Shown: in pieces, positions 27,278 through 51,681 of the stretch
Layout: each line of letters starts with the position of its first letter
How positions within the stretch are numbered: the first letter of the stretch is position 1
Assembly: GCA_041743715.1 (NCBI GenBank)
Contig: JBGTMH010000069.1
Location: 1 to 59,014, forward strand
From: Patescibacteria group bacterium
GTDB taxonomy: Bacteria > Patescibacteriota > Microgenomatia > Levybacterales > UBA12049
DNA: 59,014 nt
Direction: 5' to 3'
Notes under the pieces: generated by a model
Seen by the model: only the letters and a program-made list of their open reading frames with translations
What the model was told of the DNA's origin: nothing
Databases searched by the model: none
Translations under genes and position numbers: made by a program

Positions 27278-27823
27278 TTATTGTTCTTTATCTGGAACAA
27301 AAACAAGTGCGGCTGAATTCATGCAATATCGTTTACCAGTCGGCTCTGGGCCGTCATCGAAGACATGACCGAGGTGACCTCCACACTTATCCAATATTTC
27401 AATACGTGGTTGCCCAATGCTGTTCTCTTCTCGCAACACCAACGCATCAGGTTTGATAGGATCCCAGAAGCTTGGCCAACCTGTTCCGGAGTCATACTTT
27501 TGCTCTGATCGAAAAACCGGTTGGTTGCACCCTGCACTATAATAAGTCCCTTTTCGTGTCTCACCATTGAGCTCCCCAGTATAAGGAACCTCAGTCCCCT
27601 GCTCTCTCAAAATATAATATTGGCTGGAAGAAAGTATTTTCTTCCATTCGGCATCTGTCTTGAATTTACTTTTATCAAACGCGCCTGAAATAATTTTCCC
27701 ATCACTTTCGACAGCTAAGGGTTGTGAAGCACTATCTTTCGGAGTTTGTTTTGAAAGAATAGAATTAGCTGCAATAGCAATTATTGCGATACCAAGCAAA
27801 ATAAGCGGTATTCCTTTTTTCAT
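27278..27823 (-). CDS. msrB: membrane-anchored/exported peptide-methionine (R)-S-oxide reductase
   Basis: N-terminal hydrophobic anchor. CNQPVFRSEQKYDSGTGWPSF, GHLGHVFDDGP, RYCMNSAAL. Confidence 0.9.
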   Translation of the reverse strand: MKKGIPLILLGIAIIAIAANSILSKQTPKDSASQPLAVESDGKIISGAFDKSKFKTDAEWKKILSSSQYYILREQGTEVPYTGELNGETRKGTYYSAGCNQPVFRSEQKYDSGTGWPSFWDPIKPDALVLREENSIGQPRIEILDKCGGHLGHVFDDGPEPTGKRYCMNSAALVFVPDKEQ

Positions 27824-27832
27824 ATAAAATTT

Positions 27833-29557
27833 TTATCCAAAAGTAAATGTATACGCTTCTACCCCAGGAGTTTGAAAACGCAACTCTAATATATGATTTC
27901 CTGGCTTTCCTTTCAAATCAACAATATCATAGAGTCTATCTTCATTGACAGTCACTATGCCATTTTGCACGTCAGTTCCTGAAGATGCACTATCGATTAC
28001 TTTGCCATCGAGTATAACTTGTATCTTTCCATTCACAGCATTACCTTGTTTGAGTACCATATAGACATGTTCTCCGTTAAAATTATATACTAATGCAGCA
28101 TTTTTGCCGACACCTGCGAACTCATTACTAATATACCAATTCCCTCCGAAAGAAAATTTATTTTTAGGTATATTTTTCTCGAGCGTAAAATTTTGCTCCC
28201 CTATAGGTGCTTTTCCGCCTGGCACGAGATAAAGCATTCGCTGTGATCCGAGATAGGTTTCTGGTGAAAGTTCATCACGTGATACTCTTTTTTTGGGTGC
28301 TGAATTGACAGAGCCAGTTACTTCGCGACCTGCTTCCCTAAGAAGCGACTGTATCTTTTTTTCAGTCTCATCATAATTCCCTTCTCCATAATGAGATTCC
28401 CGGATAACACCTTTTGCATCAATGAGATAATGAGAAGGCCAATACTGATTTTTATACGCATCCCACGTCGCGAAATTATTATCCTGCGCGACTGGGTATT
28501 TTATGTTATACCGTTTTATCGCTGACAATACGTTATCAGCATCTTTTTCAAACTCAAATTCAGGAGTATGCACACCGATAACAACAAATCCATCATCTTT
28601 ATACGTGTCATACCATTTCGTGACATACGGCAGTGTCCGGATACAATTAATACATGTGTATGTCCAGAAATCGATAAGTACCACTTTGCCTCTGAGTTCT
28701 TGCATTGTCAGAGGTTTTTCAGTATTTAACCATCTCGCAATACCTGTGAATTCAGGAGCCGTTTCGATTGTCCCTAAGTCACCCACTTGTGTTGTTGATT
28801 CTCTACCACGCAATGCATCAAGTTCTTTTTTAACAGAGTCATTACTTTCAAGTTGGGTTAAAAAACTGCCATATGTCGGAAAGGTATCGAGAAGCTTTGC
28901 TTGAAGTGTTTTGTCGTAATTGGTCGCTATCGAAAGTGCCGTGAGAATCATTATGACCCCGAATACTTGCTGTATCCGTCCAGTGTACTTTGAAAGCAAT
29001 CTACTTTTTGTGAAGAGAGCGCTTCCTGCAGTCGCAAAGATAAAAAGCGGGATGCCGACACCGATGACATAAACTATAGTCACCAGAACCACATTCAGAT
29101 TTACGGCTTGGGTTGCAGCAAGTGTGGCAATTGTGGCGAGAATCGGACCAGCACAAGGTGTCCAGACAATGCCGAGTGCAAATCCAGTGACAAAACCTGA
29201 CCAGAATCCCGTTTTCTGTGGATTAGAAACCATTCCCAATTTTCCACTTAACCGACTCACAGCTCCCTCAAGTTTTTGCGAAAGTGCCGGGATGACCAAA
29301 GTCAATCCGAGAAAACCAATAATCCCCACTGCAAAATAACGAAGTATTTCAGGATCAAAGGGAATAATTTTAACGATATAGGAAATCGAGAGTGTGATAA
29401 GAGCAAAACTAACAACAATTCCAAGTGTAATCCCTAACGGCTTTTTATGTCCCCCACTCGTTGATGCAGATAAAATAATTGGCAATAGTGGCCATATACA
29501 AGGAGCGAAAATTGTGACGAGTCCTGAAATGAATGCGAATAATAGTAGTACTTCCAT
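27833..29557 (-). CDS. dipZ: DipZ-type fusion: CcdA/DsbD-like thiol-disulfide transporter + thioredoxin-like domain + C-terminal beta-sandwich domain
   Basis: FAPCIWPLLP and WTPCAGPIL in the membrane domain, and the redoxin CxxC motif WTYTCINCIRTLP. Same architecture as Mycobacterium DipZ. Confidence 0.85.
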   Translation of the reverse strand: MEVLLLFAFISGLVTIFAPCIWPLLPIILSASTSGGHKKPLGITLGIVVSFALITLSISYIVKIIPFDPEILRYFAVGIIGFLGLTLVIPALSQKLEGAVSRLSGKLGMVSNPQKTGFWSGFVTGFALGIVWTPCAGPILATIATLAATQAVNLNVVLVTIVYVIGVGIPLFIFATAGSALFTKSRLLSKYTGRIQQVFGVIMILTALSIATNYDKTLQAKLLDTFPTYGSFLTQLESNDSVKKELDALRGRESTTQVGDLGTIETAPEFTGIARWLNTEKPLTMQELRGKVVLIDFWTYTCINCIRTLPYVTKWYDTYKDDGFVVIGVHTPEFEFEKDADNVLSAIKRYNIKYPVAQDNNFATWDAYKNQYWPSHYLIDAKGVIRESHYGEGNYDETEKKIQSLLREAGREVTGSVNSAPKKRVSRDELSPETYLGSQRMLYLVPGGKAPIGEQNFTLEKNIPKNKFSFGGNWYISNEFAGVGKNAALVYNFNGEHVYMVLKQGNAVNGKIQVILDGKVIDSASSGTDVQNGIVTVNEDRLYDIVDLKGKPGNHILELRFQTPGVEAYTFTFG

Positions 29558-29734: not shown

Positions 29735-30340
29735 TTATTTCGGTAAGACAACTGAGTCAATGACGTGCGTTACGCCATTTGAAGAAATAACATCAGCAAT
29801 TTCAATCATTGCTGATTCGTTAATCCACCACTTACCATCTTTTTGTGTAAAAGTAAGTGACTGTCCATTGACAGTTTTGAGTGTCAGACCTTCTGTAATA
29901 TCAGATGATCTATACGCTCCGGAAACAACGTGATATGTCAAAATACCTGTTAATTTTTCTTTATTTTCAGGTTTGACGAGTGTTTCAACGGTTCCTGCTG
30001 GAAGCTTATCAAAAGCTGCGTTGGTTGGCGCGAAAACGGTAAAAGGACCTGCGCCCTTAAGAGTTTCGACCAATCCCGCTGCAGTTACTGCTGCAACTAA
30101 AGTGGTGTGATCACTGGATCCGACAGCATTATCGACTATATCCTTATCAGGAGTCATAAGTGCACCTCCGACCATAACACCTTCTTTTTTCTCCATAGCA
30201 TCGCCACCCTGTGTAACTTGTGGTTGCGCTTGGTTGGCTGTTGTGTTTGTTGTTGCTGGTTTGTTAGCGTTCATAGCGAGAAGTAATCCTCCTCCGAGAA
30301 CGATAACAGCTACCACAACGATTATCATAGTTTTATTCAT
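29735..30340 (-). CDS. exported fasciclin (FAS1) domain protein
   Basis: N-terminal anchor. FTVFAPTNAAFDKLP and THVIDSVVLP FAS1 motifs. Strong SD GGAGGTG upstream. Confidence 0.85.
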   Translation of the reverse strand: MNKTMIIVVVAVIVLGGGLLLAMNANKPATTNTTANQAQPQVTQGGDAMEKKEGVMVGGALMTPDKDIVDNAVGSSDHTTLVAAVTAAGLVETLKGAGPFTVFAPTNAAFDKLPAGTVETLVKPENKEKLTGILTYHVVSGAYRSSDITEGLTLKTVNGQSLTFTQKDGKWWINESAMIEIADVISSNGVTHVIDSVVLPK

Positions 30341-30383
30341 AATTTTTCACCTCCTTTCAACATATAGTTTACTTATAAAAATA

Positions 30384-30396
30384 TTAACTTACTTAA
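30384..30396. promoter_or_regulatory. TTAACTTACTTAA near-palindrome upstream of the fasciclin gene (candidate MarR operator)
   Basis: Differs at only the central base from the perfect palindrome at 30935..30947. Confidence 0.4.
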
Positions 30397-30441
30397 GTAT
30401 ACAGTCCGAAATACAGCTCTTGTCAAGTAGTATTTGGGAGT

Positions 30442-30909
30442 TTATTCCTTTGTGTTATTCACGATAACGGTCAAGACCTTCAAATAGGTTACCAGTTCTT
30501 CGTGTGTAACACCTTTAAGTATTGTGTACATAGTCTTTTTTACTTCGGGCTCTGCAGCGATGATTAATTTATTACCACGGGGCGTAATATGAATTATTTT
30601 CGCCCGCTCATCCAAACGGTCCGGTTCACGTTTTACCAATCCTTTTTTTTCAAGCTGCTTGACCAGTTTGGTTACCATAGGTGGATCATAACTCAGAAGA
30701 TCAGCAAGAACCGAGAGTTTTATTTTCCCATGTTCATGCAATTGGCCCAGAAGCTTCCATTCTGGAATATTGACAGAAAATTGATACAGTGTTTTTGTGA
30801 GATGTGAATGCAGTCTGCTATACGCTGTCCCCTGCAAAAGTCCTGTGCTATATGCGTGAAGGTCTGTGGGATCAATATTAAGTTTTTCTTCAATTAATTT
30901 TTTAGTCAT
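30442..30909 (-). CDS. MarR-family transcriptional regulator (no cysteines)
   Basis: Winged-helix segment LSVLADLLSYDPPMVTKLVKQLEKKGLVKREPDRLDERAKII. Confidence 0.85.
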   Translation of the reverse strand: MTKKLIEEKLNIDPTDLHAYSTGLLQGTAYSRLHSHLTKTLYQFSVNIPEWKLLGQLHEHGKIKLSVLADLLSYDPPMVTKLVKQLEKKGLVKREPDRLDERAKIIHITPRGNKLIIAAEPEVKKTMYTILKGVTHEELVTYLKVLTVIVNNTKE

Positions 30910-30934
30910 ATATTTAGTTATTTCTATAATTTAA

Positions 30935-30947
30935 TTAACTTAGTTAA
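30935..30947. promoter_or_regulatory. perfect palindrome TTAACT-T-AGTTAA in the marR / SGNH divergent region (candidate MarR operator)
   Basis: 6-1-6 perfect palindrome, 26 nt upstream of the marR ATG. Confidence 0.45.
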
Positions 30948-31000
30948 CATTATATATAGTTTTCCTGTTTTGTCAAGTGTTTTGTTATACTTAGATTATT

Positions 31001-31702
31001 ATGAAAAAATATATATTGATTTTAGGCGTGATTATTGGGATTGGTATCCTTTTTTTACTTACTGCTGGAAAACCAATCACAAATAACCAAGACTATTCTA
31101 GTGGTTTTAGATACGTAGCAGTTGGTGACTCCTATACTATTGGTGAAAATGTACCGGAACAAGATGCCTGGCCAGTACTTCTTACCAACCATTTGAACAA
31201 AGAAGGAATTGCAATCAATCTCATCGCAAATCCTTCAGTTACTGGTTGGACGACACAGGATGTCATTGATCGCGCGCTACCAACGTATGAATCCTCAAAC
31301 CCGACATTCGCGACACTGCTTATTGGAGTCAATGATTGGGTACAGGGCATAGAAAAAGAATCCTTTCATAAAAATCTCATCCTTATTCTCGACCGAATGC
31401 AAGCTGAACTACCTGATAAATCCAACCTCATTCTTGTAACCATCCCTGATTTTTCAACGACCCCCAACGGACGTTTGTACAGCAATGGCCGAGATATTTC
31501 AAAAGGGATTTCAGAATTTAATGACGTTATTAAAAAGGAAGGACAAAAAAGAAATTTGCCTGTTGTAGACATTTATCCGGTGAGTCAGGATATGAAAAAT
31601 AATCCAGAACTCGTATCATCCGACGGTCTTCATCCATCTGCCAAAGAATACATCATCTGGGAAAAACTCATCTTCCCTGTGGCATTTAAGATGTTACAGT
31701 AA
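31001..31702 (+). CDS. SGNH/GDSL-family hydrolase, membrane-anchored
   Basis: Block I VAVGDSYTIGE and block V SDGLHPS. N-terminal TM. Confidence 0.8.
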   Translation: MKKYILILGVIIGIGILFLLTAGKPITNNQDYSSGFRYVAVGDSYTIGENVPEQDAWPVLLTNHLNKEGIAINLIANPSVTGWTTQDVIDRALPTYESSNPTFATLLIGVNDWVQGIEKESFHKNLILILDRMQAELPDKSNLILVTIPDFSTTPNGRLYSNGRDISKGISEFNDVIKKEGQKRNLPVVDIYPVSQDMKNNPELVSSDGLHPSAKEYIIWEKLIFPVAFKMLQ

Positions 31703-34746: not shown

Positions 34747-37083
34747 TCAACCGATTTCTTTTTTCACTTTTCGCGCATGGAATGTGTTAGCCATAGGTAG
34801 CGAGAATGCAAAAATACTTCCCTTATCGATAACTGATCGTTCAATCCACAATACACCACCCATTTTCTTTACAAATTCGTGCGAAATATACAGTCCAAGT
34901 CCTGTACCTGTTGTTTTCCCTGCCTGCTTGAGTTTTATTTCATCAAATTTACTAAAAAGTTTGGACTGATCTTCTTTTGCAATTCCGATCCCCGTATCTG
35001 TGACAAAAACGATAATTTTGTCATCTTTTTGCTCGACTGAAATGGTAATACTTCCCTTTTGTGTAAATTTGAGGGAGTTACCTACGAGATTATTAATTAT
35101 CTCAATAAATTTTTCTTTATCTGTCTGGACAAACAATGCAGGACTTTGTTTAATGATGAGTTTTATATTTTTACGATCAGCGAGATTTTGCAACGCCGCA
35201 GTTCCTTCTTTTAGTAACTCATGGATATCATAATCTATCAGTGAAAAATGCAATCTCCCTGCCTCTATTCTCGACACATCCAGCATCTCATTGACAATAT
35301 GAATTAACCGTTCAGTAGACGTCGAAATCATTGTGAGTGGCCTTTTTAATCCTTGATTGATTGGACCATAATCACCATCATGGATCATAGCAACCAGTCC
35401 CCGGATCGCGCTTAAGGGAGTACGCAACTCATGCGATGCAAGTGAGATAAACTCTGTTTTCATTTCATCTATTTCTTTTTCTCGAGTAATGTCATGAAAT
35501 ACTTTTACAACGCCAATTACTTTTTTGTCGAGTATTATCGGTGACACTGTAATCAGGGACGGAAATTTCGTATTATCTTTTCGCACAAGGTAATGTGTAG
35601 CAGTAATTTTTTTCTTTTTTGCAAACACTAGCTTGAGAGGACGGTCTTCTACTGAAATAGCGATACCTTTTTCATCTTGCATAGCAAAGAGATCAACTTC
35701 ACTTTTTCCTATTACTTCACTCTCTCGCCAACCAAGTAACTCTTCAAATGCTCTATTTACTAATATAATTTTGCCGTCAGGATCAGTAGCGATTATCCCA
35801 TCACCTATACTCGCAAGCAGTGCCTCGTCTTCAGCTTTTTCATGCGCTACTTTTTCTTGATTCTTCCTTCGTTCGGTAATATCTAATGAAAGAATAGAGA
35901 TACCTTCAGAAATTGGTTCGATTCTGAGTTCAAACCATTCAGTACTACCATCTGGAAAATCAAATTTAGTTTCCATATGATGCGGTACCCGCTCTTGCAT
36001 CGAGCGTTTTAGATGAACAAATAAATCTGTTTTTTCAATACCAGGATACATTTCCATCATTGTCCTACCTAAAAGCTCATCTTTACGTTTCCGGCCTTGT
36101 TTGATGACTTCTTTGTTAACATATAAAAAACGCCAATCAAAACCGATTATCTGAAAACCCTCGGACATATTATTCAATGTGCTTTGCAATCGCTCTTCTA
36201 TTTTCCGGCCTTCCGCAACAGCAACTGAAAGCGCCAGCGCGGTAAGTGTCGTGACATCCATGAAAATTTGAAGCATAAGTAATGCAGTATTTTTCGAAAA
36301 TACTGCAAATGGCCCAAATCCTTGTAATGTTCCCCAAATCGCGAAACACGCGAATAGCACGATTGCACTAACAGTTTCACGACGGCCAAATCGGAACGCA
36401 ATCCAACCGATAACAGGAAGACAGATAAAAGTGAGTGGGTAGGTTTTGGCTATTCCACCAAAAAGTATTACAGAAACCAAAATGAGTACACTAAATGCAA
36501 TGAGCGCTTCTAATTTTCGGCTTTTACTTGAATACAAAGGATGCCTTGCTGCCCAGAAAATAATAAAAGGCGCTACTATAAGTGCTCCAGTCGCGTCCCC
36601 CATCCACCACGTGAACCAAATGGGCAAAAACTGCGACCACTGCGCATAACCACCTAGAATAAGACTCGTAACACCAATATTTGCACTCACTGTAGTACTG
36701 AGAAGCGCAGCCAAAACAGTAAATCTAAAAAGATCTTGCGCGCGAAGAAAAGCATTCCTCCCATGCGCAAAATGATTTACTAAATACGCTCCAATTACAG
36801 CTTCCAACGTATTCCCTGTTGCTATACCAAGCGAGGTAGCAACTGAACCGGCTGTGGTGAGGTTGGTCAGAAATGCAGCGATAAAAATTGCCGGCCAAAA
36901 CCGGTAACCAAAAAGCAGACATGCGGCAAGAGCAATACCTGTTGGTGCCCAAACCGCGGTGGAGCTCGTATGAACAAACGCAAGCATCAATCCCATTTTG
37001 CCTGCGATAAAATAAGATAAAGCTATTGATAAAAAAAGTATTATACTTTTATACTTATTATGTCGTTTGTTAAATAACACCAT
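34747..37083 (-). CDS. sensor histidine kinase: MASE1-like membrane domain, two PAS-like regions, HisKA, HATPase_c
   Basis: About 8 N-terminal TM helices (AVWAPTGIALAACLLFG). H-box SHELRTPLSAI. G-box GTGLGLYIS. Confidence 0.9.
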   Translation of the reverse strand: MVLFNKRHNKYKSIILFLSIALSYFIAGKMGLMLAFVHTSSTAVWAPTGIALAACLLFGYRFWPAIFIAAFLTNLTTAGSVATSLGIATGNTLEAVIGAYLVNHFAHGRNAFLRAQDLFRFTVLAALLSTTVSANIGVTSLILGGYAQWSQFLPIWFTWWMGDATGALIVAPFIIFWAARHPLYSSKSRKLEALIAFSVLILVSVILFGGIAKTYPLTFICLPVIGWIAFRFGRRETVSAIVLFACFAIWGTLQGFGPFAVFSKNTALLMLQIFMDVTTLTALALSVAVAEGRKIEERLQSTLNNMSEGFQIIGFDWRFLYVNKEVIKQGRKRKDELLGRTMMEMYPGIEKTDLFVHLKRSMQERVPHHMETKFDFPDGSTEWFELRIEPISEGISILSLDITERRKNQEKVAHEKAEDEALLASIGDGIIATDPDGKIILVNRAFEELLGWRESEVIGKSEVDLFAMQDEKGIAISVEDRPLKLVFAKKKKITATHYLVRKDNTKFPSLITVSPIILDKKVIGVVKVFHDITREKEIDEMKTEFISLASHELRTPLSAIRGLVAMIHDGDYGPINQGLKRPLTMISTSTERLIHIVNEMLDVSRIEAGRLHFSLIDYDIHELLKEGTAALQNLADRKNIKLIIKQSPALFVQTDKEKFIEIINNLVGNSLKFTQKGSITISVEQKDDKIIVFVTDTGIGIAKEDQSKLFSKFDEIKLKQAGKTTGTGLGLYISHEFVKKMGGVLWIERSVIDKGSIFAFSLPMANTFHARKVKKEIG

Positions 37084-37148: not shown

Positions 37149-37598
37149 ATGGGTGTTCTAGAAGATATTAAAATCCTTTATGGAAATAAAAAGAAATCAG
37201 GTCAATCTGTTGTAACCAAGAAATCAAAACCTCTAAAAAAAGTTTTAATTGTCGAAGATGAACCTTTTTTACAAGAAATGTATCGTGATAAATTCAAGCA
37301 TGAAGGATTTGCAGTCATAGTTGCTGATAATGGCAAAGACGGATTAGAAAAAGCAATCAAGGATAAACCCGACATTATCCTGCTCGATCTGATGATGCCC
37401 GTTATGGACGGAAAATCAATGCTTCGTAAATTGCGTGGAATCCCAGAATTCAAAACCTTACCAGTCATTGTCCTCACCAATGCGGGAGAAGTAGAAAATA
37501 TTAGGGAAACACAACATTTCGATAACGCAAACGAATTTCTGATCAAGTCAAATGTGAATATTGATGATGTAGTAAAAAAAGTAAAGCATTGGACATAA
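37149..37598 (+). CDS. single-domain response regulator with a short basic N-terminal extension
   Basis: VLIVEDEPF, DIILLDLMMP, PVIVLTN, FLIKS. CATAAT lies 6 nt upstream of the ATG. Confidence 0.9.
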   Translation: MGVLEDIKILYGNKKKSGQSVVTKKSKPLKKVLIVEDEPFLQEMYRDKFKHEGFAVIVADNGKDGLEKAIKDKPDIILLDLMMPVMDGKSMLRKLRGIPEFKTLPVIVLTNAGEVENIRETQHFDNANEFLIKSNVNIDDVVKKVKHWT

Positions 37599-37617
37599 CC
37601 TTTTCCCAAAATATAAT
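37589..37617 (+). promoter_or_regulatory. candidate promoter TTGGAC-N17-TATAAT for the small-peptide transcript
   Basis: TTGGAC at 37589..37594, a 17-nt spacer, TATAAT at 37612..37617. This would give a roughly 240-nt 5' leader. Confidence 0.5.
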
Positions 37618-37748
37618 TTAGACTTATTGCATTAAAACCTCTTATTTAACGAGACTAATTTACCTTCTTGATGTATTTATTACAAAACCTTTTCCTTATT
37701 CTATTAATTCTATAGTTAAATAGCACTCTATTAGCAAAAAAGATAGCT

Positions 37749-37855
37749 GGGGGGCACAGCCCTCCGTAGCCTGATCCTCTACAGGATAAGATTTAAAAAT
37801 CAACAGAGGTGCGAAACCATCCTTCGCATAAAGCTTCGGATGGCGAAGGGGGGTG
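37749..37855 (+). promoter_or_regulatory. GC-rich structured 5' leader (riboswitch/attenuator-like) ending in the purine-rich RBS tract
   Basis: Hairpin GGGGGGC-aca-GCCCTCC (37749..37765) and hairpin ATCCT-ctac-AGGAT. Three mutually exclusive helices at 37810..37849 involve TTCGC and GCGAAGG. Confidence 0.4.
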
Positions 37856-37863
37856 AATAAAAT

Positions 37864-38013
37864 AATGGCTAAAACTAAAATAACTATTGATGATTTGAAA
37901 CAGCAAAGAGCTGAAGAATTACCAGAACGTGAAGAATTGACACTTTTTGGAGGATTCGGATTAGGAATATTCCTAGGCTTTGGTGGCTGTAATCCTTGCT
38001 TCCGTTGTAAGTA
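37864..38013 (+). CDS. 49-aa precursor-like peptide: charged double-glycine-type leader + Gly/Phe-rich hydrophobic segment + CxxCxxC tail
   Basis: Below the ORF-track cutoff. ATG..TAA translates to MAKTKITIDDLKQQRAEELPEREELTLFGGFGLGIFLGFGGCNPCFRCK. GAAGGGGGG lies about 10 nt upstream, and an M50 protease gene starts 100 nt downstream. The only competing ORF is an implausible antisense one. Confidence 0.6.
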
Positions 38014-38040
38014 AGGACAACTGTTAACGAAATATTGATG

Positions 38041-38073
38041 TGGGGGCGGGTCGCAAATCGAAAGACCCGCCCT
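38041..38073 (+). other. GC-clamp stem-loop after the peptide ORF (partial terminator or mRNA-stabilising hairpin)
   Basis: GGGCGGGTC (38043..38051) pairs perfectly with GACCCGCCC (38063..38071), with an 11-nt loop. No U-tract follows; TGGTATAAT (38075..38083) follows directly. Confidence 0.55.
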
Positions 38074-38113
38074 CATGGTATAATTAAAAAATACCTCAAA
38101 CTGTCCACGAATT

Positions 38114-39487
38114 ATGAAACAATTGGTTGAAGGAATAGAAATTATCGGAAAAGTCAAAGATTCAGGATACAAAATTCCACTCTATTTAATCCGTACTCAG
38201 GAGGGGAAATTTATTCAGCTGACAGATCTTTTATTCCATACTGTCGTTGCATTACAAAATGAAACAACACCTCAAGCTATCGCAGCGCGTGTCAGTGAGA
38301 TAACTGGAAAAGACATTGATGAAGATGTAATCGTATATCTTATCAATGAAAAACTTGAACCACTAGGAATTCTCGCAAGTTCTGATGTAACAAAAAAACA
38401 CAAACAGAAACAGTTGCTCGGACTTACTGCCCGTTTCACATTGCTTCCAGAATCTATCGTTAATATCTTTGCTCGTTTTTTACGACCTTTTTTCCATCCT
38501 TTTCTTATAGGTGTGGTGCTGGCTGCTGTTATTGAAATAAATATCTGGCTTTATTTTTGGCATGGCATAGACAATGCACTTGCGCAAACGACATTGCAAC
38601 CATTACTCATACTCATGATTTTAGGATTATTTCTTCTCTCAAGTCTTTTTCATGAATTAGGCCATGCGACAGGAAGTCTGTATGGAGGAGGAAAACCAGG
38701 AAGGATAGGCGCTGGTTTATATCTCTTATGGCCTGCATTTTTTACTGACATTACTGATACCTACAGACTCAATAGATTTGCCAAACTTCGAAGTGATATT
38801 GGAGGTATCTATTTTAATTTAATTTTTTCACTATTTATAGCGGTCGCATACTATTTCACAGGTTTTGAGCCACTGGTGCTTCTCATCATTATCCAGAATA
38901 TCGAAATACTTTATCAACTTTTACCATTCCTCCGCCTGGATGGATATTTTATTGTTTCAGACATTGTCGGTGTCCCAAATCTCTATGGTCGTATCAAACC
39001 ACTCTTACTAAGTATCCTTCCCGGACAACACAGAGAAGCAACAAAAGATCTCAAACCTTGGGTCAGATGGGTAGTTGTTCTTTGGGTAATACTCACTATA
39101 CCTGCACTTGGTTATTTCTTTTGGTTCTTACTAACTAATGCACCTCAAATCTTTACTACTGCCTTGATTTCGGTATTGACCCAATCAAATATAATTGCTG
39201 AAAATTTACGTAATGGTACCTATCTTTCAGCAGTTATTCCCGGTTTACAGTTGCTTATTCTTTTACTCCCTGCACTAGGATTGCTCTTAATCATTTTCCG
39301 CTTTGGAGAAACAGGATTAGATGCGATATATCGTTTGGCTGGTGATTCTTTTGGAAAAAGGACGATCATTACGGCCGGCCTATTTATAGAAGCTCTTTTA
39401 TTTGCTTATTTCTTAATCCCTCCCCAATTACTTGATACCCCGCTGAAAGTAATAGCACAAAACCTAATCTCAATATTTCCTAAATAG
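38114..39487 (+). CDS. M50-family (site-2-protease/YydH-like) membrane zinc metalloprotease with ~90-aa PqqD/RRE-like N-terminal soluble domain
   Basis: HExxH as FHELGHA and a second M50 motif LPFLRLDGYF, in a polytopic membrane region. The N-terminal segment KFIQLTDLLFHTVVALQNETTPQAIAARVSEITGKDIDEDVIVYLINEKLEPLGIL resembles PqqD-type peptide-binding domains. Confidence 0.75.
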   Translation: MKQLVEGIEIIGKVKDSGYKIPLYLIRTQEGKFIQLTDLLFHTVVALQNETTPQAIAARVSEITGKDIDEDVIVYLINEKLEPLGILASSDVTKKHKQKQLLGLTARFTLLPESIVNIFARFLRPFFHPFLIGVVLAAVIEINIWLYFWHGIDNALAQTTLQPLLILMILGLFLLSSLFHELGHATGSLYGGGKPGRIGAGLYLLWPAFFTDITDTYRLNRFAKLRSDIGGIYFNLIFSLFIAVAYYFTGFEPLVLLIIIQNIEILYQLLPFLRLDGYFIVSDIVGVPNLYGRIKPLLLSILPGQHREATKDLKPWVRWVVVLWVILTIPALGYFFWFLLTNAPQIFTTALISVLTQSNIIAENLRNGTYLSAVIPGLQLLILLLPALGLLLIIFRFGETGLDAIYRLAGDSFGKRTIITAGLFIEALLFAYFLIPPQLLDTPLKVIAQNLISIFPK

Positions 39488-39529
39488 AAACAATCTCTTT
39501 TAATGAGGTATGTTATACTTTTTGCAATA

Positions 39530-40102
39530 ATGAAAAAAAGAGTGATCTTAATACACGGTTGGGAAGGAACACCTGATAAAGGATGGAAAGTATGGCTGAA
39601 AGAGCAGTTAGAACCAAAAGGAATCAAAGTCCTTATCCCCACAATGCCTGAAACAAATACTCCTACGCTGGAAAAATGGGTATCACATCTGACATCAGTT
39701 ATCGGTAGTCCTGATGAAAATACTTTTCTCGTAGGACACAGTCTTGCATCCATAACGATTCTGAGATATTTGGAATCATTACAAGAAGGACAGCAAATTG
39801 GGGGTGCTATTTTCGTTGCGGGATTCGGAACCGATTTGGAATATGATGGATATAATCAAGAGGTGTCTAATTTCTTTACAACGCCTATCAACTGGGGGAA
39901 AGTAAAAAAACGATGCAAACATTTCGTCGCTTTCAACTCTACCGATGACCCATTGGTCAAACCTAAGCATAATAAACTGTTTGAAGAAAAACTCGACGCC
40001 AAAGCCATAATGCAAAGTAATATGAAGCATTACAGCGAAAGCGAAGGAATTATAGAAGTGCCAAGCATATTAAAGGAAGTGCTTCAAATGATAAAAGCAT
40101 AG
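39530..40102 (+). CDS. RBBP9/YdeN-family alpha/beta serine hydrolase
   Basis: VILIHGWEGTP and nucleophile elbow LVGHSLAS. Start re-called to MKKRVILIHGW. Confidence 0.75.
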   Translation: MKKRVILIHGWEGTPDKGWKVWLKEQLEPKGIKVLIPTMPETNTPTLEKWVSHLTSVIGSPDENTFLVGHSLASITILRYLESLQEGQQIGGAIFVAGFGTDLEYDGYNQEVSNFFTTPINWGKVKKRCKHFVAFNSTDDPLVKPKHNKLFEEKLDAKAIMQSNMKHYSESEGIIEVPSILKEVLQMIKA

Positions 40103-40110
40103 ATTATCCC

Positions 40111-41127
40111 CTACAGACCTGCTGCTTGGCGGATTTCTATTTCACTGAAAGGGAGTATTCTATTACTGATCATTGTGTTTAGCTTATCTAAAATAGTATT
40201 TGCCAAAAATCCATTTATTACTGTTCCTGTATGTACTCCGTCACTCAGGTAGAAATTGCGTGGATTATTATTCAGTAAGAGCCGCTCGAGTGGAACACCA
40301 TCGACTGTAATTTTGGCACTTCCGTTTTTATAAAAAAGGTCATTGTATAACTCGTTTGGATCGACTGTCTGTAAATTTTCTTCTTGCGCGAGTTTATCAA
40401 TTTCTGCGTTTGCATCTTTGACAACTTCAGACACCTGCGCTCTTTGATCGGGAAATGGATAAGCAACCTGGACTCCCAGATGATTCCCCCAGTCAGGAAT
40501 CTTAACAAGAAGTATTCGAACTTCACCTGCATCCTTTATCGCATAAACTGCTGTTTTGATATCAGCAATTACTCTGTTAATTTTGCTCTTTTTGTCAGGA
40601 TCAGAGAGATTGTTATTATAAATTGCGCCATAGTCGTCTTGTGTTATATAAGGCGCAAAATCAAGCGCTCCGATAAAGAGTATGACAACATTTAATTTTC
40701 CTTCTTTCACTTGCTGAGCAACACCGGTATGCTGTCCACTTTCTATCAGACTCCGTGCAGTCGCGCCTGATCGTGCCCAGTTATATTCAAATCCAGTCCG
40801 CCGCGGCTCACCCCAATCACCCCATTCGCCAAAGTCAGTTCCCCGAACTTTCGCAAGCAATTCTACCCAATTTTTTGTAGCCGAAGGATAATTATCTCCT
40901 CTATTATCATCTGCCCTGTATTCATCTGACTGACTGTCACCCAAAACCGCAATACCTTTCATCTTCAAAGGCACTGGTGTCACTGATGGTACCAATGGTT
41001 GTAGACGATCTATAACAGCTTGCGGATGATAAACGGTAAAAACGCCTACACTAATCGAGACAGCAAATACTCCAATCAGAATAACAAAGAGAAATATCTT
41101 AAGTATTTTACGAATTTTCTTGGACAC
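40111..41127 (-). CDS. membrane-anchored SGNH/GDSL-like hydrolase
   Basis: Block I AVLGDSQSDEY and block V LSDGVHTG. N-terminal TM. Confidence 0.7.
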   Translation of the reverse strand: MSKKIRKILKIFLFVILIGVFAVSISVGVFTVYHPQAVIDRLQPLVPSVTPVPLKMKGIAVLGDSQSDEYRADDNRGDNYPSATKNWVELLAKVRGTDFGEWGDWGEPRRTGFEYNWARSGATARSLIESGQHTGVAQQVKEGKLNVVILFIGALDFAPYITQDDYGAIYNNNLSDPDKKSKINRVIADIKTAVYAIKDAGEVRILLVKIPDWGNHLGVQVAYPFPDQRAQVSEVVKDANAEIDKLAQEENLQTVDPNELYNDLFYKNGSAKITVDGVPLERLLLNNNPRNFYLSDGVHTGTVINGFLANTILDKLNTMISNRILPFSEIEIRQAAGL

Positions 41128-41883: not shown

Positions 41884-42216
41884 ATGGCCACCAAACAATC
41901 CATAGTAGACTTTCTTACAGAACAAATGGCAAATGCCGGAAACATAAGCTCTCGGAAAATGTTTGGAGAATATGCAATTTATTGCAATGAAAAAGTTGTA
42001 GCGTTTGTCTGTGATGATAAATTATTTGTCAAACCTACCCATGCAGGCCGAACATTTATCGAAACAGTCGAAGAAGCCCCTGCCTATCCTGGTAGTAAAC
42101 TCTACTTTTATATCAGTGGAGACTTTTGGGAAGACCAACAATGGCTTTCAGAACTCATATCCAAAACTGCTGAAGAATTACCGCTTCCAAAACCGAAAAA
42201 ACATAAAAAGAAATAA
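41884..42216 (+). CDS. TfoX/Sxy N-terminal-domain protein
   Basis: ISSRKMFGEYAIYCNEKVVAFVCDDKLFVK is the typical TfoX_N pattern. Confidence 0.75.
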   Translation: MATKQSIVDFLTEQMANAGNISSRKMFGEYAIYCNEKVVAFVCDDKLFVKPTHAGRTFIETVEEAPAYPGSKLYFYISGDFWEDQQWLSELISKTAEELPLPKPKKHKKK

Positions 42217-45838: not shown

Positions 45839-46411
45839 TCAATATAACTTTTCTCCCTTTGTTAACATCTCAAGTATCACTTTCATCCTCCTCTGTCGTG
45901 TTTCTGGCTTTTTAGCGGTTTGTAATTTCCAGGCAATTGCGTAAGTATTGGTTTTATTAAGCGTCTTAAAAAACGCTTCAGCTTTTTTGTCTTTGGATAA
46001 CTCTTTAAGAAAATCCTCAGGGATCACCATATTTTTTGGCGAGTCATATGCCTGGTCCCATCTCCCATCTTTTTTAGCTGCTTCAACTGTTTCAAGACCG
46101 GCTTGTTGCATTTTCCCCTCTAGTATCAATCTCTCAACTATGTCGCGATTTCTCTTCGACCAAATACTCTTTGGACCACGCGGAGTGAATTTTTGTAGCC
46201 AGTATTTATCATCAAACGGTTTCACTTGTCCATCAATCCACCCATAACAAATCGCTACTTCAAGAGCCTCTTGATAGGTAACGGACGGAATTTTACTCGC
46301 CTTTTTAGCAAGTTTTATCCAAATTCCTTTTGTTATTTGATGCTCTTTTTTTAACCATGCTTCCCAAGCTTTCGGTGAAGAAAATGGTTTTATAATATAA
46401 TCATTTTTCAT
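45839..46411 (-). CDS. YdeI/OmpD-associated family protein
   Basis: WEAWLKKEH...GIWIKLAKK...EALEVAICYGWIDGQ. Confidence 0.75.
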   Translation of the reverse strand: MKNDYIIKPFSSPKAWEAWLKKEHQITKGIWIKLAKKASKIPSVTYQEALEVAICYGWIDGQVKPFDDKYWLQKFTPRGPKSIWSKRNRDIVERLILEGKMQQAGLETVEAAKKDGRWDQAYDSPKNMVIPEDFLKELSKDKKAEAFFKTLNKTNTYAIAWKLQTAKKPETRQRRMKVILEMLTKGEKLY

Positions 46412-48223: not shown

Positions 48224-50080
48224 TTACTCGGATAAATCAACGATAGTCATAGATGCTGATTCGGGACTTCCTCCTTCGGCAGGTTCGGAGGATAAAAATG
48301 TTTCTCCATCTTGTCTTTCAGTAACAAGTTTACGCCGATAATTTTTCTCTAGTATAGGACGCATCTCAGATACTATAGCTGAAACTCTATTGGTTACTTG
48401 ATCAATGACCTCAGCGTCTGGATAAAGTATTTGAGCTAATTCCCTATACGATATTGCTGTACCGAAGGATAAATTAATCATTTCCCATACGAAACGTGCT
48501 CGTTTCCCTCCAATGAGTCTTCCATCTGGACAAACTATAAAATCCTCTCTCTCAATAGTAAGTGTATCCTTGCTTCTTTCAAAAGTTATCGGGATATCAG
48601 CAAGACTATAACCTAACCTGGTTGGGGATACTTGATTTTGTTGGATTATTGAAAGATTGTTATATGTTATGTTTTTTATGATCCAGTCAATTGCATCATA
48701 GAATCTTGAGTATGCTAGTTGGTCAGTAGCATGTGCACTACCATAGAGAATTGTACATAATTCATTTATTTTCAAAGGGCCGTCATTTTGAATAAGTGCA
48801 TCTAATATTGTCAAAGCAGCATGACCAGCTCTAGAGTGTGATCTCTTTTTTAAAGATATTATTTGCTCTCCAATTTGGATGATATCTTGTTTCTCATAAT
48901 ATATTATTTCTATTTGAGTCTCATCTGCTTCACGCAGTTCCTCAGCGCTTATTACTCTATTTTGAGATCTTCCTTTAGGATAACGTAATGGTAGTACTTC
49001 CAGCCCTTCTCGCTTTGAAATTTCATCAAACGGAATATCTGATGTCTTAAATACTACATCAACAGCTGCAATTCCATAACGAGCATCAGATGATCTTTTT
49101 TCGATAACACGAATAAGAGGTTTATTTCCTACAACAACAAATTTTTGTAACCATTCTTTTGCAAATCGGCTTTTATCATTAACTGATTTTCTGTCAAGTT
49201 CAGGATGTTTTATTGCAATTTCACCATTTAGCTCAATAGAAGGGACTAACTCACCTTGTCTTTCAATAAGATATTCAAGTATTATAAGAGCATCTTCTGC
49301 AGTTGGATTGACACCTCCTGGCGATCTCAAAGGTATAAGCGTATTATTAATTTGTATATAATCATGGTCCCTATGGATTGTAATTCGCGTAACTGCATCA
49401 ATGCTGTACCGTTCTTTCCGACTATTATTTGCATCAACAATTCTTTGCAATCGATACCTTGGATGTTGGGGCATATATTTTTGAGAAATTTGTTGTAAAG
49501 TACCTCTTGTCACATCAAGAGCTTCCTCACGAAACAGTACATGAGGGTAAACTAGTGGTGCGATTTCTTCTACACTCAGTGAACGCGCACGCGTTGCTCC
49601 ACGCAATAATAGCATCGTACGAGCAGTTGGGCCTTTGTAAGCTTTATCGTCGAGGACAAAGGTATCTCCTCTCTCTGATTCACTTTTTACATCTCTTTCT
49701 TCTCGTAGAGGAGTAACCAATGGTAAACCCCTGTCAGTAGTAGTTCTATAGTGCATGTCAGCTAGAACAAATACTGGATCCCTTCTGAGTTGTTGCACTA
49801 TTTGGCTACGCACTACTATTAATGTTTCTGCATCAAACGTTCCCTCCCCAACCGCTACAGCTAGTCTTCCCAATTCTCTCTCAGTTCTCTGAGCGGATTC
49901 CCTGGCAAGATGAAACATCTCACTCGATGCAGGATGATACCTAGCCACATCAAGGGAAAGTGGACGGGAGTGAGACCATATACGCAGTTTGCTGGCTAAC
50001 TCCTTTGGAAAAACAATTTTTTTATCATAAGGAGATCCGCCCCTATTTATATTTCTACCTGTATCACGCTCATTAACCAT
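48224..50080 (-). CDS. hypothetical protein with four tandem OmpR/PhoB-type winged-helix-like modules, no receiver domain
   Basis: By-eye repeat units begin near GPTARTMLLLRG, NPTAEDALIILEYL, HSRAGHAALTILDAL and GGKRARFVWEMINL. Each has a helix / x-S-x-x-E-L / recognition-helix / aromatic-wing pattern. TGGGATAAT lies 6 nt upstream of the ATG. Confidence 0.6.
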   Translation of the reverse strand: MVNERDTGRNINRGGSPYDKKIVFPKELASKLRIWSHSRPLSLDVARYHPASSEMFHLARESAQRTERELGRLAVAVGEGTFDAETLIVVRSQIVQQLRRDPVFVLADMHYRTTTDRGLPLVTPLREERDVKSESERGDTFVLDDKAYKGPTARTMLLLRGATRARSLSVEEIAPLVYPHVLFREEALDVTRGTLQQISQKYMPQHPRYRLQRIVDANNSRKERYSIDAVTRITIHRDHDYIQINNTLIPLRSPGGVNPTAEDALIILEYLIERQGELVPSIELNGEIAIKHPELDRKSVNDKSRFAKEWLQKFVVVGNKPLIRVIEKRSSDARYGIAAVDVVFKTSDIPFDEISKREGLEVLPLRYPKGRSQNRVISAEELREADETQIEIIYYEKQDIIQIGEQIISLKKRSHSRAGHAALTILDALIQNDGPLKINELCTILYGSAHATDQLAYSRFYDAIDWIIKNITYNNLSIIQQNQVSPTRLGYSLADIPITFERSKDTLTIEREDFIVCPDGRLIGGKRARFVWEMINLSFGTAISYRELAQILYPDAEVIDQVTNRVSAIVSEMRPILEKNYRRKLVTERQDGETFLSSEPAEGGSPESASMTIVDLSE

Positions 50081-50213
50081 GAGGAGATTATCCCATAATA
50101 TTTTATTTGTGTAAATACGACTCTGTAATCCAGAAACAACTGATTTTTTTCAGTATGAATGAGGCTTTAGAAAACAAAATGAGGTGATTTTACAGTTATC
50201 TTTTTTTCATTAC

Positions 50214-50738: not shown

Positions 50739-50760
50739 TATACCATGGGAAGTCTTCTTT

Positions 50761-51651: not shown

Positions 51652-51681
51652 ATAAAGTATCCTCCTTCTTTTGGAGATGTA

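What the first reader, a model, noticed from the sequence alone, without database searches (positions are those of the whole stretch)
37589..40102. Unannotated 49-aa Cys-rich peptide with a double-glycine-type leader next to an RRE-like/M50 protease fusion: candidate new peptide-maturation or intramembrane-processing module
What the sequence shows: an ORF below the 60-aa track cutoff (ATG 37864 to TAA 38013) encodes MAKTKITIDDLKQQRAEELPEREELTLFGG / FGLGIFLGFGG / CNPCFRCK. The N-terminal 30 aa are charged and helical and end in E-E-L-x-x-x-E-E-L-x-x-x-G-G. This is the shape of double-glycine leaders of class II lanthipeptides and bacteriocins (consensus LSxxELxxIxGG). The remainder is a Gly/Phe-rich hydrophobic stretch with a second GG, then CxxCxxC. 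One hundred nt downstream starts a 457-aa polytopic protein with HELGH and LRLDGY, i.e. the M50/site-2-protease family. That family includes YydH of the B. subtilis yydFGHIJ epipeptide operon, whose precursor YydF is also 49 aa. Inference: its first ~90 aa are soluble and read like a PqqD-type RiPP recognition element (strands, then helices: LTDLLFHTVVALQNETTPQAIAARVSEITGKDIDEDVIVYLINEKLEPLGIL). The window contains no radical-SAM enzyme, LanM/LanB, cyclodehydratase or C39-ABC exporter, so the locus fits no described RiPP class. Two readings are possible. (a) It is a minimal leader-guided protease plus precursor releasing a small disulfide or metal-binding Cys peptide. (b) The Gly-rich hydrophobic stretch is a helix-destabilised TM segment, and the peptide is a dedicated intramembrane substrate of the M50 enzyme. 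A YdeN-type serine hydrolase is co-directional immediately downstream. An SGNH hydrolase and a SAM methyltransferase follow and could be tailoring candidates or unrelated genes.
Basis: partly seen in the sequence, partly recalled or inferred. Interest (0 to 1): 0.85.

Follow-up and report, generated by a model that had tools for sequence, protein, structure and literature searches.

The report
Leader peptide with RRE-fused membrane protease
A real 49-residue peptide gene sits next to a membrane metalloprotease that carries its own peptide-recognition domain; the pair belongs to a very large, unnamed family related to the leader-removing protease of daptide antibiotics but has no modifying enzymes.

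Summary
Its N-terminal half carries a conserved leader motif, (I/L)(S/T)xE(E/D)L…E-x-L-P-x-R-E-x-(M/L). A profile built only from non-CPR peptides finds this ORF as the single hit in the window's 1,286 six-frame segments (E 4.6e-5).

The same leader precedes the homologous protease gene in at least 131 of 151 loci from Actinomycetota, Chloroflexota, Dormibacterota and Levyibacteriota-like (CPR) genomes. All seven distinct CPR relatives have it. What follows the leader (the cores) is unrelated between loci.

The 457-aa protein has an N-terminal three-strand, three-helix domain whose best PDB matches are RiPP recognition elements (RREs): TbiB1, PqqD, McbB, CteB and TruD. It also has an M50 core with invariant HExxH and LDG. 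Its closest curated model is the daptide intramembrane metalloprotease, but below that model's cut-off.

No rSAM, LanM, YcaO, daptide enzymes, C39 peptidase or ABC exporter is in the window.

The "double-glycine leader" reading is not supported, because the GG is not conserved. The adjacent hydrolases and methyltransferase are not conserved partners.

Best reading: RRE-guided intramembrane removal of the leader from an apparently unmodified peptide. This is a new variant of a known kind.

The parts
37590..37617 (+). Promoter-like site TGGACA-16 nt-TATAAT (11 of 12 matches), overlapping the end of the response-regulator gene (stop codon ends at 37598). It is a possible own promoter for the peptide gene, giving a ~245-nt 5' UTR. 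Tentative.
   Evidence: This is a consensus match only; the number of such sites in the region is not above the shuffled expectation. Neither Rfam nor folding shows a structured element in the UTR.
37846..37853 (+). Shine-Dalgarno-like run AAGGGGGG, 11 nt upstream of the ATG of the small ORF.
   Evidence: Read directly from the sequence.
37865..38014 (+). Precursor peptide gene: 49 codons plus TAA. Residues 1-28 (37865-37948) are the leader. Residues 29-49 (37949-38011) are the core, GGFGLGIFLGFGGCNPCFRCK. The exact boundary is inferred from where family conservation ends.
37919..37939 (+). Conserved leader motif L19-P20-E21-R22-E23-E24-L25. The family consensus is L-P-(D/E)-R-(E/A)-x-(M/L). 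Across 376 family peptides, L occurs 358 times, P 361 times and R 360 times.
38040..38076 (+). Perfect 13-bp GC-rich hairpin (GGGGGCGGGUC...GACCCGCCCUC) between the peptide and protease genes. It is a probable leaky terminator or attenuator, or an mRNA-stabilising element.
   Evidence: -35.3 kcal/mol, z = -4.7, 0 of 200 shuffles as stable. A hairpin with the same GGGCGG/CCGCCC stem core sits in the same spacer in all 7 CPR relatives checked.
38114..39487 (+). Gene for the 457-aa RRE-fused M50 (site-2-protease-like) intramembrane metalloprotease.
38114..38383 (+). N-terminal soluble domain, residues 1-90. It has three main strands then three helices (strands 9-14, 23-27, 33-36; helices 38-47, 53-64, 70-84), which is a PqqD-like RiPP recognition element fold. 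A disordered linker (residues 91-101) follows.
   Evidence: AF2 models: full length, pLDDT 85; domain only, pLDDT 88.7, pTM 0.80. Foldseek against PDB: TbiB1 prob 0.99, TM 0.59-0.64; also PqqD, lasso B1, McbB, CteB and TruD. PF05402 is the commonest weak Pfam hit among relatives.
38651..38665 (+). HELGH zinc-binding/catalytic motif (H180, E181, H184), lying inside a predicted membrane helix (163-190).
   Evidence: (invariant in 28 and in 19 homologues).
38924..38947 (+). Second S2P motif P-F-L-R-L-D-G-Y (residues 271-278). D276 is the presumed third zinc ligand.
   Evidence: P271, R274, D276, G277, Y278 invariant.

Best explanation
The 49-aa ORF is the cognate substrate (precursor) of the protease encoded 99 nt downstream.

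Proposed steps:
1. The acidic N-terminal half of the peptide is a leader (…ITIDDLKQQRAEELPEREELTLF).
2. The cytoplasmic PqqD-type recognition domain (residues 1-90 of the protease) binds this leader.
3. Binding places the segment just after the motif, about residues 25-30, in the intramembrane HExxH/LDG zinc site.
4. The leader is cut off, releasing a peptide of about 21-24 residues. This peptide has a Gly-zipper hydrophobic stretch (GxxxGxxxG) followed by a cationic CxxCxxC tail.

No tailoring enzyme is needed or present. The mature product is therefore probably unmodified apart from possible disulfide or metal chemistry of its three Cys. It probably acts at or in a membrane, either as a bacteriocin-like peptide or as a signal.

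The hairpin between the two genes probably keeps peptide mRNA in excess over protease mRNA.

Shown: the ORF, the family-wide leader/protease linkage, the RRE-like fold, intact catalytic motifs, and absence of tailoring genes.

Inferred: leader binding to the RRE, the cleavage position, export, and the activity of the product.
For: 1. Leader specificity. A profile of non-CPR leaders finds only this ORF in the window (E 4.6e-5, next best 5.6). It is still the only window hit after two iterations (E 7.7e-6).

2. Linkage. 131 of 151 loci with at least 600 nt of upstream DNA have 1-6 same-strand leader ORFs within 1.6 kb 5' of the protease gene. Six of the 20 'misses' are CPR loci where the leader is visible by eye, and two more have divergently oriented peptide genes.

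3. All CPR relatives (50-58% identical proteases) carry an ORF with the same leader directly upstream. Their cores are unrelated: Cys-rich, His/Asp-rich, Tyr/Asn-rich or Ala-rich, from 34 to about 200 aa. Conservation of leader plus protease with free cores is the signature of leader-guided processing.

4. RRE fold. AF2 models have pLDDT 85 and 88.7. The top PDB matches are TbiB1 with its bound leader (prob 0.99, TM about 0.6), PqqD, lasso B1, McbB, CteB and TruD.

5. Homology to the daptide RRE-S2P leader peptidase. NF041824 scores E 1e-30 over query residues 26-346, so the match reaches into the N-domain. YydH/LiaK scores E 2e-14. The daptide paper describes exactly this fusion and its role in leader removal.

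6. The catalytic residues are invariant.

7. This N-domain type is found essentially only fused to M50 proteins. There are 1,286 clusters at 50% identity. Of the 56 top hits of at least 400 aa, 47 contain HExxH followed by xDG.

8. No conserved enzyme neighbour is seen anywhere in the family or in the window.

9. A conserved hairpin lies between the two genes.
Against:
- Foldseek E-values are weak (0.03-0.6). The window's own N-domain has no PF05402 hit, and only 8 of 42 relatives have a weak one.
- Pfam's Peptidase_M50 model does not hit the protein at E <= 0.01. A sequence profile finds nothing in the PDB.
- The NCBIfam scores are far below the equivalog cut-offs (107 vs 300; 54 vs 225).
- The core of this peptide has no detectable homologue, so purifying selection on it could not be tested.
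- No exporter or immunity gene is evident in the window.
- The cleavage site and the function of the product are guesses.
- 12 of 151 loci have no recognisable leader ORF nearby.
Confidence: 0.68

Rival explanations
1. The peptide is a signalling pheromone. The M50 protease matures it, as Eep-type site-2 proteases mature enterococcal and streptococcal peptide pheromones (from my own knowledge). The adjacent MASE1-PAS histidine kinase and single-domain response regulator sense it or control it. This rival concerns the product's role and is compatible with the cleavage mechanism above.
For: Two-component genes flank the module in the window: the HK at 34747-37083 and the RR at 37149-37598. They also flank it in the syntenic loci L003 and L004; in L003 the RR gene overlaps the end of the protease gene. 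Actinobacterial loci often have regulators next to the peptides: FHA, Clp_N-HTH, MerR/DUF433, ECF sigma and RRs.
Against: Other CPR loci have no two-component genes nearby (L001, L167, L169, L171). Most family loci carry 2-6 tandem paralogous peptides, and some cargos are about 200 aa. Neither is typical of pheromones.
Confidence: 0.15
2. It is a true modified RiPP. The tailoring enzymes are either the neighbouring YdeN-type hydrolase, GDSL hydrolase or Methyltransf_24 protein, or are encoded elsewhere in the genome.
For: The hydrolase is co-directional and starts only 16 nt after the protease stop codon. A GDSL lipase recurs near the module in a CPR subclade: the window, L003, L004, L172 and the P0013 contig. 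A different methyltransferase lies next to the L167 module.
Against: None of these genes is conserved across the family or even across all CPR loci. None has an RRE. The family's RRE type was found only on M50 proteins. No known RiPP tailoring family is in the 59-kb window.
Confidence: 0.1
3. This is regulated intramembrane proteolysis of a membrane-inserted substrate. The Gly-rich hydrophobic stretch is a helix-destabilised transmembrane segment that is cut within the bilayer, and the RRE-like domain is incidental.
For: LTLFGGFGLGIFLGFGGC is about 18 hydrophobic, Gly-rich residues (core GRAVY +0.69). Site-2 proteases classically cut such segments (from my own knowledge). The fourth-best structural match of the full model is the SpoIVFB:pro-sigmaK complex.
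Against: In relatives, the equivalent segment after the same leader is hydrophilic (GRAVY -0.7 to -1.9) or only mildly hydrophobic. Substrate choice therefore cannot depend on a transmembrane segment. What is conserved is the acidic soluble leader and the RRE.
Confidence: 0.08
4. It is a class II (double-glycine leader) bacteriocin or lanthipeptide precursor, cut after GG by a C39 peptidase/ABC exporter encoded elsewhere.
For: EELTLFGG partly resembles the ELxxIxGG consensus (read from the sequence).
Against: The GG is absent at this position in every relative. No C39 domain, ABC transporter or LanM is in the window. The leader instead matches the family that is linked to the M50 protease.
Confidence: 0.02
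5. The small ORF is a chance ORF and is not translated.
For: It is short, no homologue of the whole peptide was found, and a 158-aa antisense ORF overlaps it.
Against: It is the unique leader-profile hit in the window. It has a strong SD. Its position and strand are as in at least 139 other loci.
Confidence: 0.02

Closest known systems
Daptide leader peptidase MpaP/DapP (RRE fused N-terminally to an intramembrane site-2 protease) with its DapA precursors (Ren et al., Nat Commun 2023;14:1624)
   Same: Both have the same two-domain architecture, an N-terminal RRE followed by an M50 membrane protease. This is the best curated sequence match (NF041824, E 1e-30, covering residues 26-346). In both, precursor genes lie directly upstream, often in several copies. 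The leaders are short and acidic with an E-L…E-A/M-type motif: daptide ELExMEAP versus E-x-L-P-x-R-E-x-M/L here.
   Different: The score is 107 bits against a cut-off of 300. The peptide has no C-terminal Thr (it ends in Lys). No DapB (DUF-RRE), DapC (Fe-ADH type), DapD (aminotransferase) or DapM is in the window or in related loci. The leader motif is different. The host range includes CPR.
Epipeptide systems: YydF/EpeX precursors with the M50 protease YydH/EpeP/LiaK
   Same: Both pair a small (~49 aa) precursor with a membrane M50 protease thought to cleave, and perhaps export, the peptide. NF058609 matches at E 2e-14.
   Different: Here there is no radical-SAM epimerase (YydG/EpeE) and no ABC transporter in the window. 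The match covers only the catalytic core (residues 130-283) and is below cut-off (54 vs 225 bits). According to the NCBIfam profile length (246), YydH-type proteins lack the RRE domain.
Stand-alone or fused RiPP recognition elements (PqqD, lasso-peptide B1 such as TbiB1, McbB, CteB, TruD)
   Same: The N-domain has the same three-strand/three-helix fold, with TM about 0.5-0.64.
   Different: Sequence identity is 9-18%. In those systems the RRE hands the precursor to a modifying enzyme; here its only partner is a protease.
Double-glycine leader / C39-PCAT bacteriocin processing
   Same: Both are leader-guided proteolysis with little or no modification of the peptide. The leader is acidic and helical and, in this one peptide, ends in GG.
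   Different: The protease class is different (an intramembrane zinc protease versus a cysteine protease fused to an ABC exporter). The GG is not conserved and no PCAT is present.

Membership tests
RiPP recognition element (PqqD-like RRE) | Winged-helix fold: a three-stranded antiparallel sheet followed by three helices | tested here: met
   AF2 places strands at 9-14, 23-27 and 33-36 and helices at 38-47, 53-64 and 70-84. The top PDB matches are RRE proteins: TbiB1 prob 0.99, then PqqD, lasso B1, McbB, CteB and TruD.
RiPP recognition element (PqqD-like RRE) | Sequence match to PqqD family PF05402 | tested here: inconclusive
   The window's own domain has no hit. PF05402 is the most frequent weak hit among relatives (8 of 42, best E 0.0043).
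RiPP recognition element (PqqD-like RRE) | Binds the leader of the cognate precursor | not testable with these tools
The only support is the family-wide co-occurrence of leader and domain.
Peptidase M50 / site-2 protease | HExxH in a membrane helix plus a downstream (N/Q)xxPxxxLDG motif supplying the third zinc ligand | tested here: met
   HELGH is at residues 180-184, inside predicted helix 163-190. QLLPFLRLDGY is at 268-278. These residues are invariant in the alignments.
Peptidase M50 / site-2 protease | Match to the curated family model (Pfam PF02163) or to solved S2P structures | tested here: inconclusive
   No Pfam hit at E <= 0.01. No PDB sequence hit. The Foldseek hit to SpoIVFB is weak (prob 0.41). 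NCBIfam M50-type RiPP protease models do match.
Daptide biosynthetic system | RRE-fused intramembrane metalloprotease at equivalog level (NF041824, cut-off 300 bits) | tested here: not met
   107 bits, E 1e-30: a homologue, not an equivalog.
Daptide biosynthetic system | [quoted passage not shown] | tested here: not met
   The leader is EELPEREEL and the C-terminus is Lys.
Daptide biosynthetic system | DapB (DUF-RRE), an oxidative decarboxylase (Fe-ADH type), a PLP aminotransferase and a methyltransferase in the cluster | tested here: not met
   None of 57 window ORFs matches PF00465, PF00202 or related families. These genes are also absent from related loci.
Epipeptide (YydF/EpeX) system | Radical-SAM epimerase and ABC transporter next to the precursor and the M50 protease | tested here: not met
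   No Radical_SAM or ABC_tran hit in the window. NF058609 scores 54 bits against a cut-off of 225.
Double-glycine leader bacteriocin / class II lanthipeptide | Conserved GG (or GA/GS) cleavage site, with a C39 peptidase-ABC exporter and/or LanM | tested here: not met
   The GG is unique to this peptide. Relatives have N, D or S at that position. No C39, ABC or LanM gene is present.

The most novel reading that the evidence does not exclude
The E-x-L-P-x-R-E-x-(M/L) leader together with the RRE-fused site-2 protease may be a general, modification-free sorting and maturation pathway.

In this reading the leader is an N-terminal 'address tag', read by an RRE and removed in the membrane. It directs hypervariable cargo to the cell envelope or the exterior. 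The cargo ranges from 21-aa Cys peptides to ~200-aa low-complexity proteins, and includes the very abundant NANxAAPVNAAVAANVLSD peptides.

The system would be comparable in logic to sortase, exosortase or rhombosortase systems. It would use a RiPP-type recognition domain, and it is widespread in Actinomycetota, Chloroflexota, Dormibacterota and CPR bacteria.
Probability: 0.3. Interest if true: 0.85.

Novelty: new variant of a known kind. Interest (0 to 1): 0.62.

Why it matters
RRE domains are normally thought of as adaptors that deliver precursors to modifying enzymes. Here, across at least 1,286 protease clusters (50% identity) and at least 7,900 peptide clusters (90% identity), the only partner of the RRE is a membrane protease, and no tailoring enzyme travels with it.

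This would be a minimal 'leader plus RRE-protease' maturation route for ribosomal peptides. It is a large family of secreted or membrane peptides that no database names. It is present in cultivable Mycolicibacterium, Saccharopolyspora and Pseudonocardia, so it is experimentally tractable.

The family also occurs in genome-reduced CPR bacteria, where peptide natural-product-like systems are rarely reported. There it carries Cys/His/Asp-rich cores that could be metal-binding or antimicrobial.

For genome mining, the leader motif and the hairpin-separated two-gene layout give a simple handle for finding unannotated small ORFs.

Tried and rejected
- A word-based homologue search with the 49-aa peptide found nothing.
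- Rfam found no RNA family in the window. The 5' UTR fold is no better than shuffles.
- A PDB sequence search with the protease profile gave no hit.
- The metagenome scan returned only soil actinobacterial relatives (46% identity or less). It yielded no close relative of the window, so dN/dS on this core is impossible.
- Looking up the window's own protease to learn the source record found nothing on record. The taxon is therefore inferred only from the best hits (Candidatus Levyibacteriota, 58%), from synteny and from 38.6% GC.
- Literature searches found no description of this family. I searched for the peptide motifs, for RRE plus site-2 protease, for M50 plus RiPP, and for RRE-Finder plus metalloprotease. 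Only the daptide papers and a protease review came up.
- My first leader profile had included the window's own ORF among its seeds. I rebuilt it without any CPR sequence and repeated the test.
- Rejected readings: the double-glycine leader, the neighbouring hydrolases and methyltransferase as conserved tailoring genes, and the transmembrane-substrate model as a general explanation (reasons are given under the rival explanations).
- Clustering of neighbours in high-GC loci produced mostly antisense shadow ORFs. Only a ~260-aa lipoprotein-like protein (28 loci), an FHA regulator (12 loci) and a Clp_N-HTH protein (16 loci) recur, and none is an enzyme family known from RiPPs.

Full report
**1. 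The observation.**
The small ORF is present, but it is shifted by one base relative to the finding. The ATG is at 37865 and the TAA ends at 38014. It encodes the quoted 49 residues. A G-rich Shine-Dalgarno run (37846-37853) precedes it, and a promoter-like TGGACA-16-TATAAT sits at 37590-37617.

Ninety-nine bases downstream starts a 457-codon gene (38114-39487) that contains HELGH and LRLDGY. The quoted neighbours are confirmed: a YdeN-type serine hydrolase, a GDSL hydrolase and a Methyltransf_24 protein.

I scanned 57 ORFs of at least 110 aa, covering the whole 59-kb window, against Pfam. None matched radical-SAM, LanM/B/C, YcaO, C39, ABC transporter, class-III aminotransferase or Fe-ADH families. 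The descriptive part of the finding therefore holds.

**2. The protease.**
Pfam gives no hit. NCBIfam matches the 'daptide biosynthesis intramembrane metalloprotease' NF041824 (E 1e-30, 107 bits, query residues 26-346) and the 'YydH/LiaK epipeptide maturation metalloprotease' NF058609 (E 2e-14). Both scores are far below the equivalog cut-offs.

Homologues reach 58% identity in Candidatus Levyibacteriota MAGs and 35-47% in hundreds of Actinomycetota, Chloroflexota and Dormibacterota. Where they carry any name, it is 'putative peptide zinc metalloprotease'. H180, E181, H184, D276 and G277 are invariant.

An AlphaFold2 model (pLDDT 85) shows three parts:
- a soluble N-domain with strand-strand-strand-helix-helix-helix topology;
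- a disordered linker (residues 91-101);
- a polytopic helical body.

The best PDB matches of the whole model are the lasso-peptide RRE TbiB1 bound to its leader, followed by SpoIVFB:pro-sigmaK. The N-domain modelled alone (pLDDT 88.7, pTM 0.80) again finds RRE-containing RiPP proteins first: TbiB1 (prob 0.99, TM about 0.6), PqqD, lasso B1, McbB, CteB and TruD. The E-values are modest (0.03-0.6). PF05402 is only a weak hit, although it is the most frequent one, among relatives (8 of 42).

I accept the fold assignment.

A profile of this N-domain finds 1,286 clusters (at 50% identity) in 1.84 billion representatives. Of the 56 top hits of at least 400 aa, 47 contain HExxH followed by xDG. The short hits look like contig-end fragments. 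This RRE type therefore seems to occur only on M50 proteases.

**3. The peptide and its relatives.**
In every CPR relative whose DNA I could read, an ORF directly 5' of the protease gene starts with the same kind of leader and continues with an unrelated core.

| Locus | Leader (end) | Core |
|---|---|---|
| window | …ITIDDLKQQRAEELPEREELTLF | GGFGLGIFLGFGGCNPCFRCK |
| L001 | …ENAELLPQREELSLL | NVAAPVNAAVAVNAL… |
| L167 | MTKISLDQLMEEKAEVLPTRDELSVF | DCGGSRF… (5 Cys; Asp/Asn/His/Tyr-rich) |
| L169 | …EEELLAQIAEPLQERLELWVL | NCHP… (8 Cys; His/Asp-rich) |
| L171 | …SFDELSSQKGELLPDREELCVM | SYGSCAQVTC… (5 Cys) |
| L172, L003, L004 | same leader | 150-210 residues of Tyr/Asn/Trp/His-rich sequence |

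A second assembly (L168) carries the L167 ORF unchanged, although the gene caller chose another frame.

In Actinomycetota and allies, the protease is preceded by 1-6 tandem genes for peptides of about 65-70 aa. Their leader is L(S/T)xEEL…GExLP(D/E)R(E/A)xMSL(I/V). The dominant core is NANxAAPVNAAVAANVLSDxSxAYAxAxQxxxIxQxN. Pro-rich, GN-repeat/Cys and long repeat cores occur as alternatives behind the same leader, sometimes in the same array.

Over 376 such ORFs, the motif positions are almost fixed: L (358), P (361), R (360), M (350) and S (345). Conservation ends after a hydrophobic pair, and the next residue is N (295), D, S or G.

**4. Is the window's ORF a family member by a fair test?**
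My first profile had included the window's ORF among its seeds. I rebuilt it from non-CPR sequences only. In the window's 1,286 six-frame segments it then finds the small ORF alone (E 4.6e-5; next best 5.6), aligning DLKQQRAEELPEREELTL to ELeaqaGEeLPDREAMSL.

After two iterations, the profile finds at least one same-strand hit within 1.6 kb upstream of the protease in 131 of 151 loci that have enough upstream DNA. Only 19 hits lie anywhere else in those loci. Eight of the 20 'misses' do have the peptide: six are CPR loci where it is visible by eye, and two have divergently oriented peptide genes.

- the ORF is not absent in relatives;
- homologues do not routinely lack an adjacent ORF;
- the N-domain fold is RRE-like.

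**5. What does not hold.**
The GG after the leader is unique to this peptide, so the double-glycine analogy is a coincidence of one sequence. No C39/ABC partner exists in the window.

The YdeN hydrolase is not found next to the protease in any relative. The GDSL lipase and TfoX_N recur only in one CPR subclade and in changing positions, which looks like shared synteny.

Neighbour clustering over about 170 loci shows regulators (FHA, Clp_N-HTH, MerR/DUF433) and an unknown lipoprotein-like protein, but no enzyme.

The 'dedicated transmembrane substrate' reading fits this hydrophobic core (GRAVY +0.69). It does not fit the hydrophilic cores of relatives (-0.7 to -1.9).

**6. Mechanism proposed.**
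This rests on analogy with MpaP/DapP. That enzyme was discovered precisely as an RRE N-terminally fused to a site-2 protease, and it is assigned to leader removal. The proposed steps are:
1. The cytoplasmic RRE binds the acidic leader.
2. The segment after L-P-x-R-E-x-L-(T)-(L)-(F) is fed into the intramembrane zinc site.
3. The leader is removed.
4. The core is released, possibly across the membrane, as has been suggested for EpeP.

The daptide motif ELExMEAP and the present ExLPxRExM/L share an E-L…E-A/M pattern and both lie immediately before the core. I regard this as suggestive, not demonstrated.

The 13-bp GC hairpin between the genes (z = -4.7) recurs with the same GGGCGG/CCGCCC stem core in all seven CPR relatives, often followed by a U-run. 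This fits the attenuator commonly seen between precursor and enzyme genes.

The mature window peptide would be a GxxxGxxxG hydrophobic stretch with a CxxCxxC-K tail. Its role is open: it could be bacteriocin-like or membrane-active, metal- or disulfide-linked, or a signal read by the adjacent MASE1 kinase.

**7. Known or new.**
The architecture is known from daptides. However, the defining daptide features are absent: the C-terminal Thr, DapB/C/D/M, the ELExMEAP motif and an equivalog-level score. So are the epipeptide features (rSAM epimerase, ABC transporter).

No source names the peptides. At least 7,904 clusters are all 'hypothetical protein', with no Pfam or NCBIfam model. The searchable literature does not mention their motifs.

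I classify the locus as a new variant of a known kind: an RRE-guided intramembrane leader peptidase working without tailoring enzymes. The window holds a divergent CPR member with a unique Cys-containing core. The broader possibility, that this is a general leader-directed sorting pathway for hypervariable cargo, is not excluded.

Noticed in passing
window 38040-38076; also L001 3923-4000, L003 3940-4000, L004 3935-4000, L167 2926-3000, L169 2913-3000, L171 2654-2807, L172 2939-3000: All CPR loci have a GC-rich hairpin with the same stem core, GGGCGG…CCGCCC, in the short spacer between the peptide gene and the protease gene. The proteases are only ~45-58% identical. I did not check whether this is simply the usual terminator style of these genomes or a specific element.
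   Followed up: partly
L005-L166 (e.g. L035 1758-2847, L006 1754-2843): There is a very large unnamed family of ~65-70-aa peptides with the core NANxAAPVNAAVAANVLSDxSxAYAxAxQxxxIxQxN. They occur in 1-6 tandem copies upstream of the protease. At least 7,904 clusters are all 'hypothetical'. The S/Q/N-spaced repeat pattern and the longer repeat variants (L061, L072, L080, L059) are reminiscent of amyloid or beta-solenoid-forming peptides. There is no Pfam hit.
   Followed up: partly
L003 3256-3939, L004 3218-3934, L172 2384-2938, L059 2069-2899: The same leader also heads long cargos: 184-238 aa of Asn/Trp/Tyr/His/Asp-rich low-complexity sequence in CPR, and a ~270-aa repeat protein in Mycolicibacterium agri (L059). 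The system is therefore not restricted to small peptides.
   Followed up: partly
window 40111-41127 (-), 41884-42216 (+), 29735-31702; L003, L004, L172: A membrane-anchored GDSL lipase and a TfoX_N protein recur close to the protease in one CPR subclade, but in different orders. A Fasciclin-MarR-GDSL(233 aa) trio is shared with L172. This is probably shared synteny rather than a functional link.
   Followed up: partly
L169 1-2441; L167 1746-2573 and 6198-7292: Some CPR loci have export-type genes next to the module. L169 has a YknX/HlyD-like adaptor, an ABC ATPase and a MacB/FtsX permease directly upstream of the peptide gene. L167 has a Peptidase_C39_2 protein upstream and a YknX-like adaptor downstream. 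The window has none of these.
   Followed up: no
window 37696-38172 (-): A 158-aa antisense ORF overlaps the whole peptide gene and the hairpin. It is probably a shadow ORF. I did not test it.
   Followed up: no
window 21377-24570 (+): Ku and a full three-domain LigD (phosphoesterase, ligase and primase-polymerase) are present. That is a complete NHEJ pair in what appears to be a Patescibacteria-type genome.
   Followed up: no
window 9593-12955 (-) and 45839-46411 (-): A 1,120-aa protein carries an Rce1-like (CPBP) intramembrane protease domain, and there is an OmdA/YdeI 'bacteriocin-protection' family protein. Both family types are sometimes linked to bacteriocin immunity. Neither is adjacent to the module.
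   Followed up: no
window 27278-29557 (-): A DsbD-transmembrane/thioredoxin fusion protein lies next to MsrB (SelR). This thiol-redox machinery could matter for a secreted Cys peptide, but it lies 8 kb away.
   Followed up: no
window 48224-54268: A run of six ORFs (143-618 aa) has no Pfam hit at E <= 1e-4.
   Followed up: no
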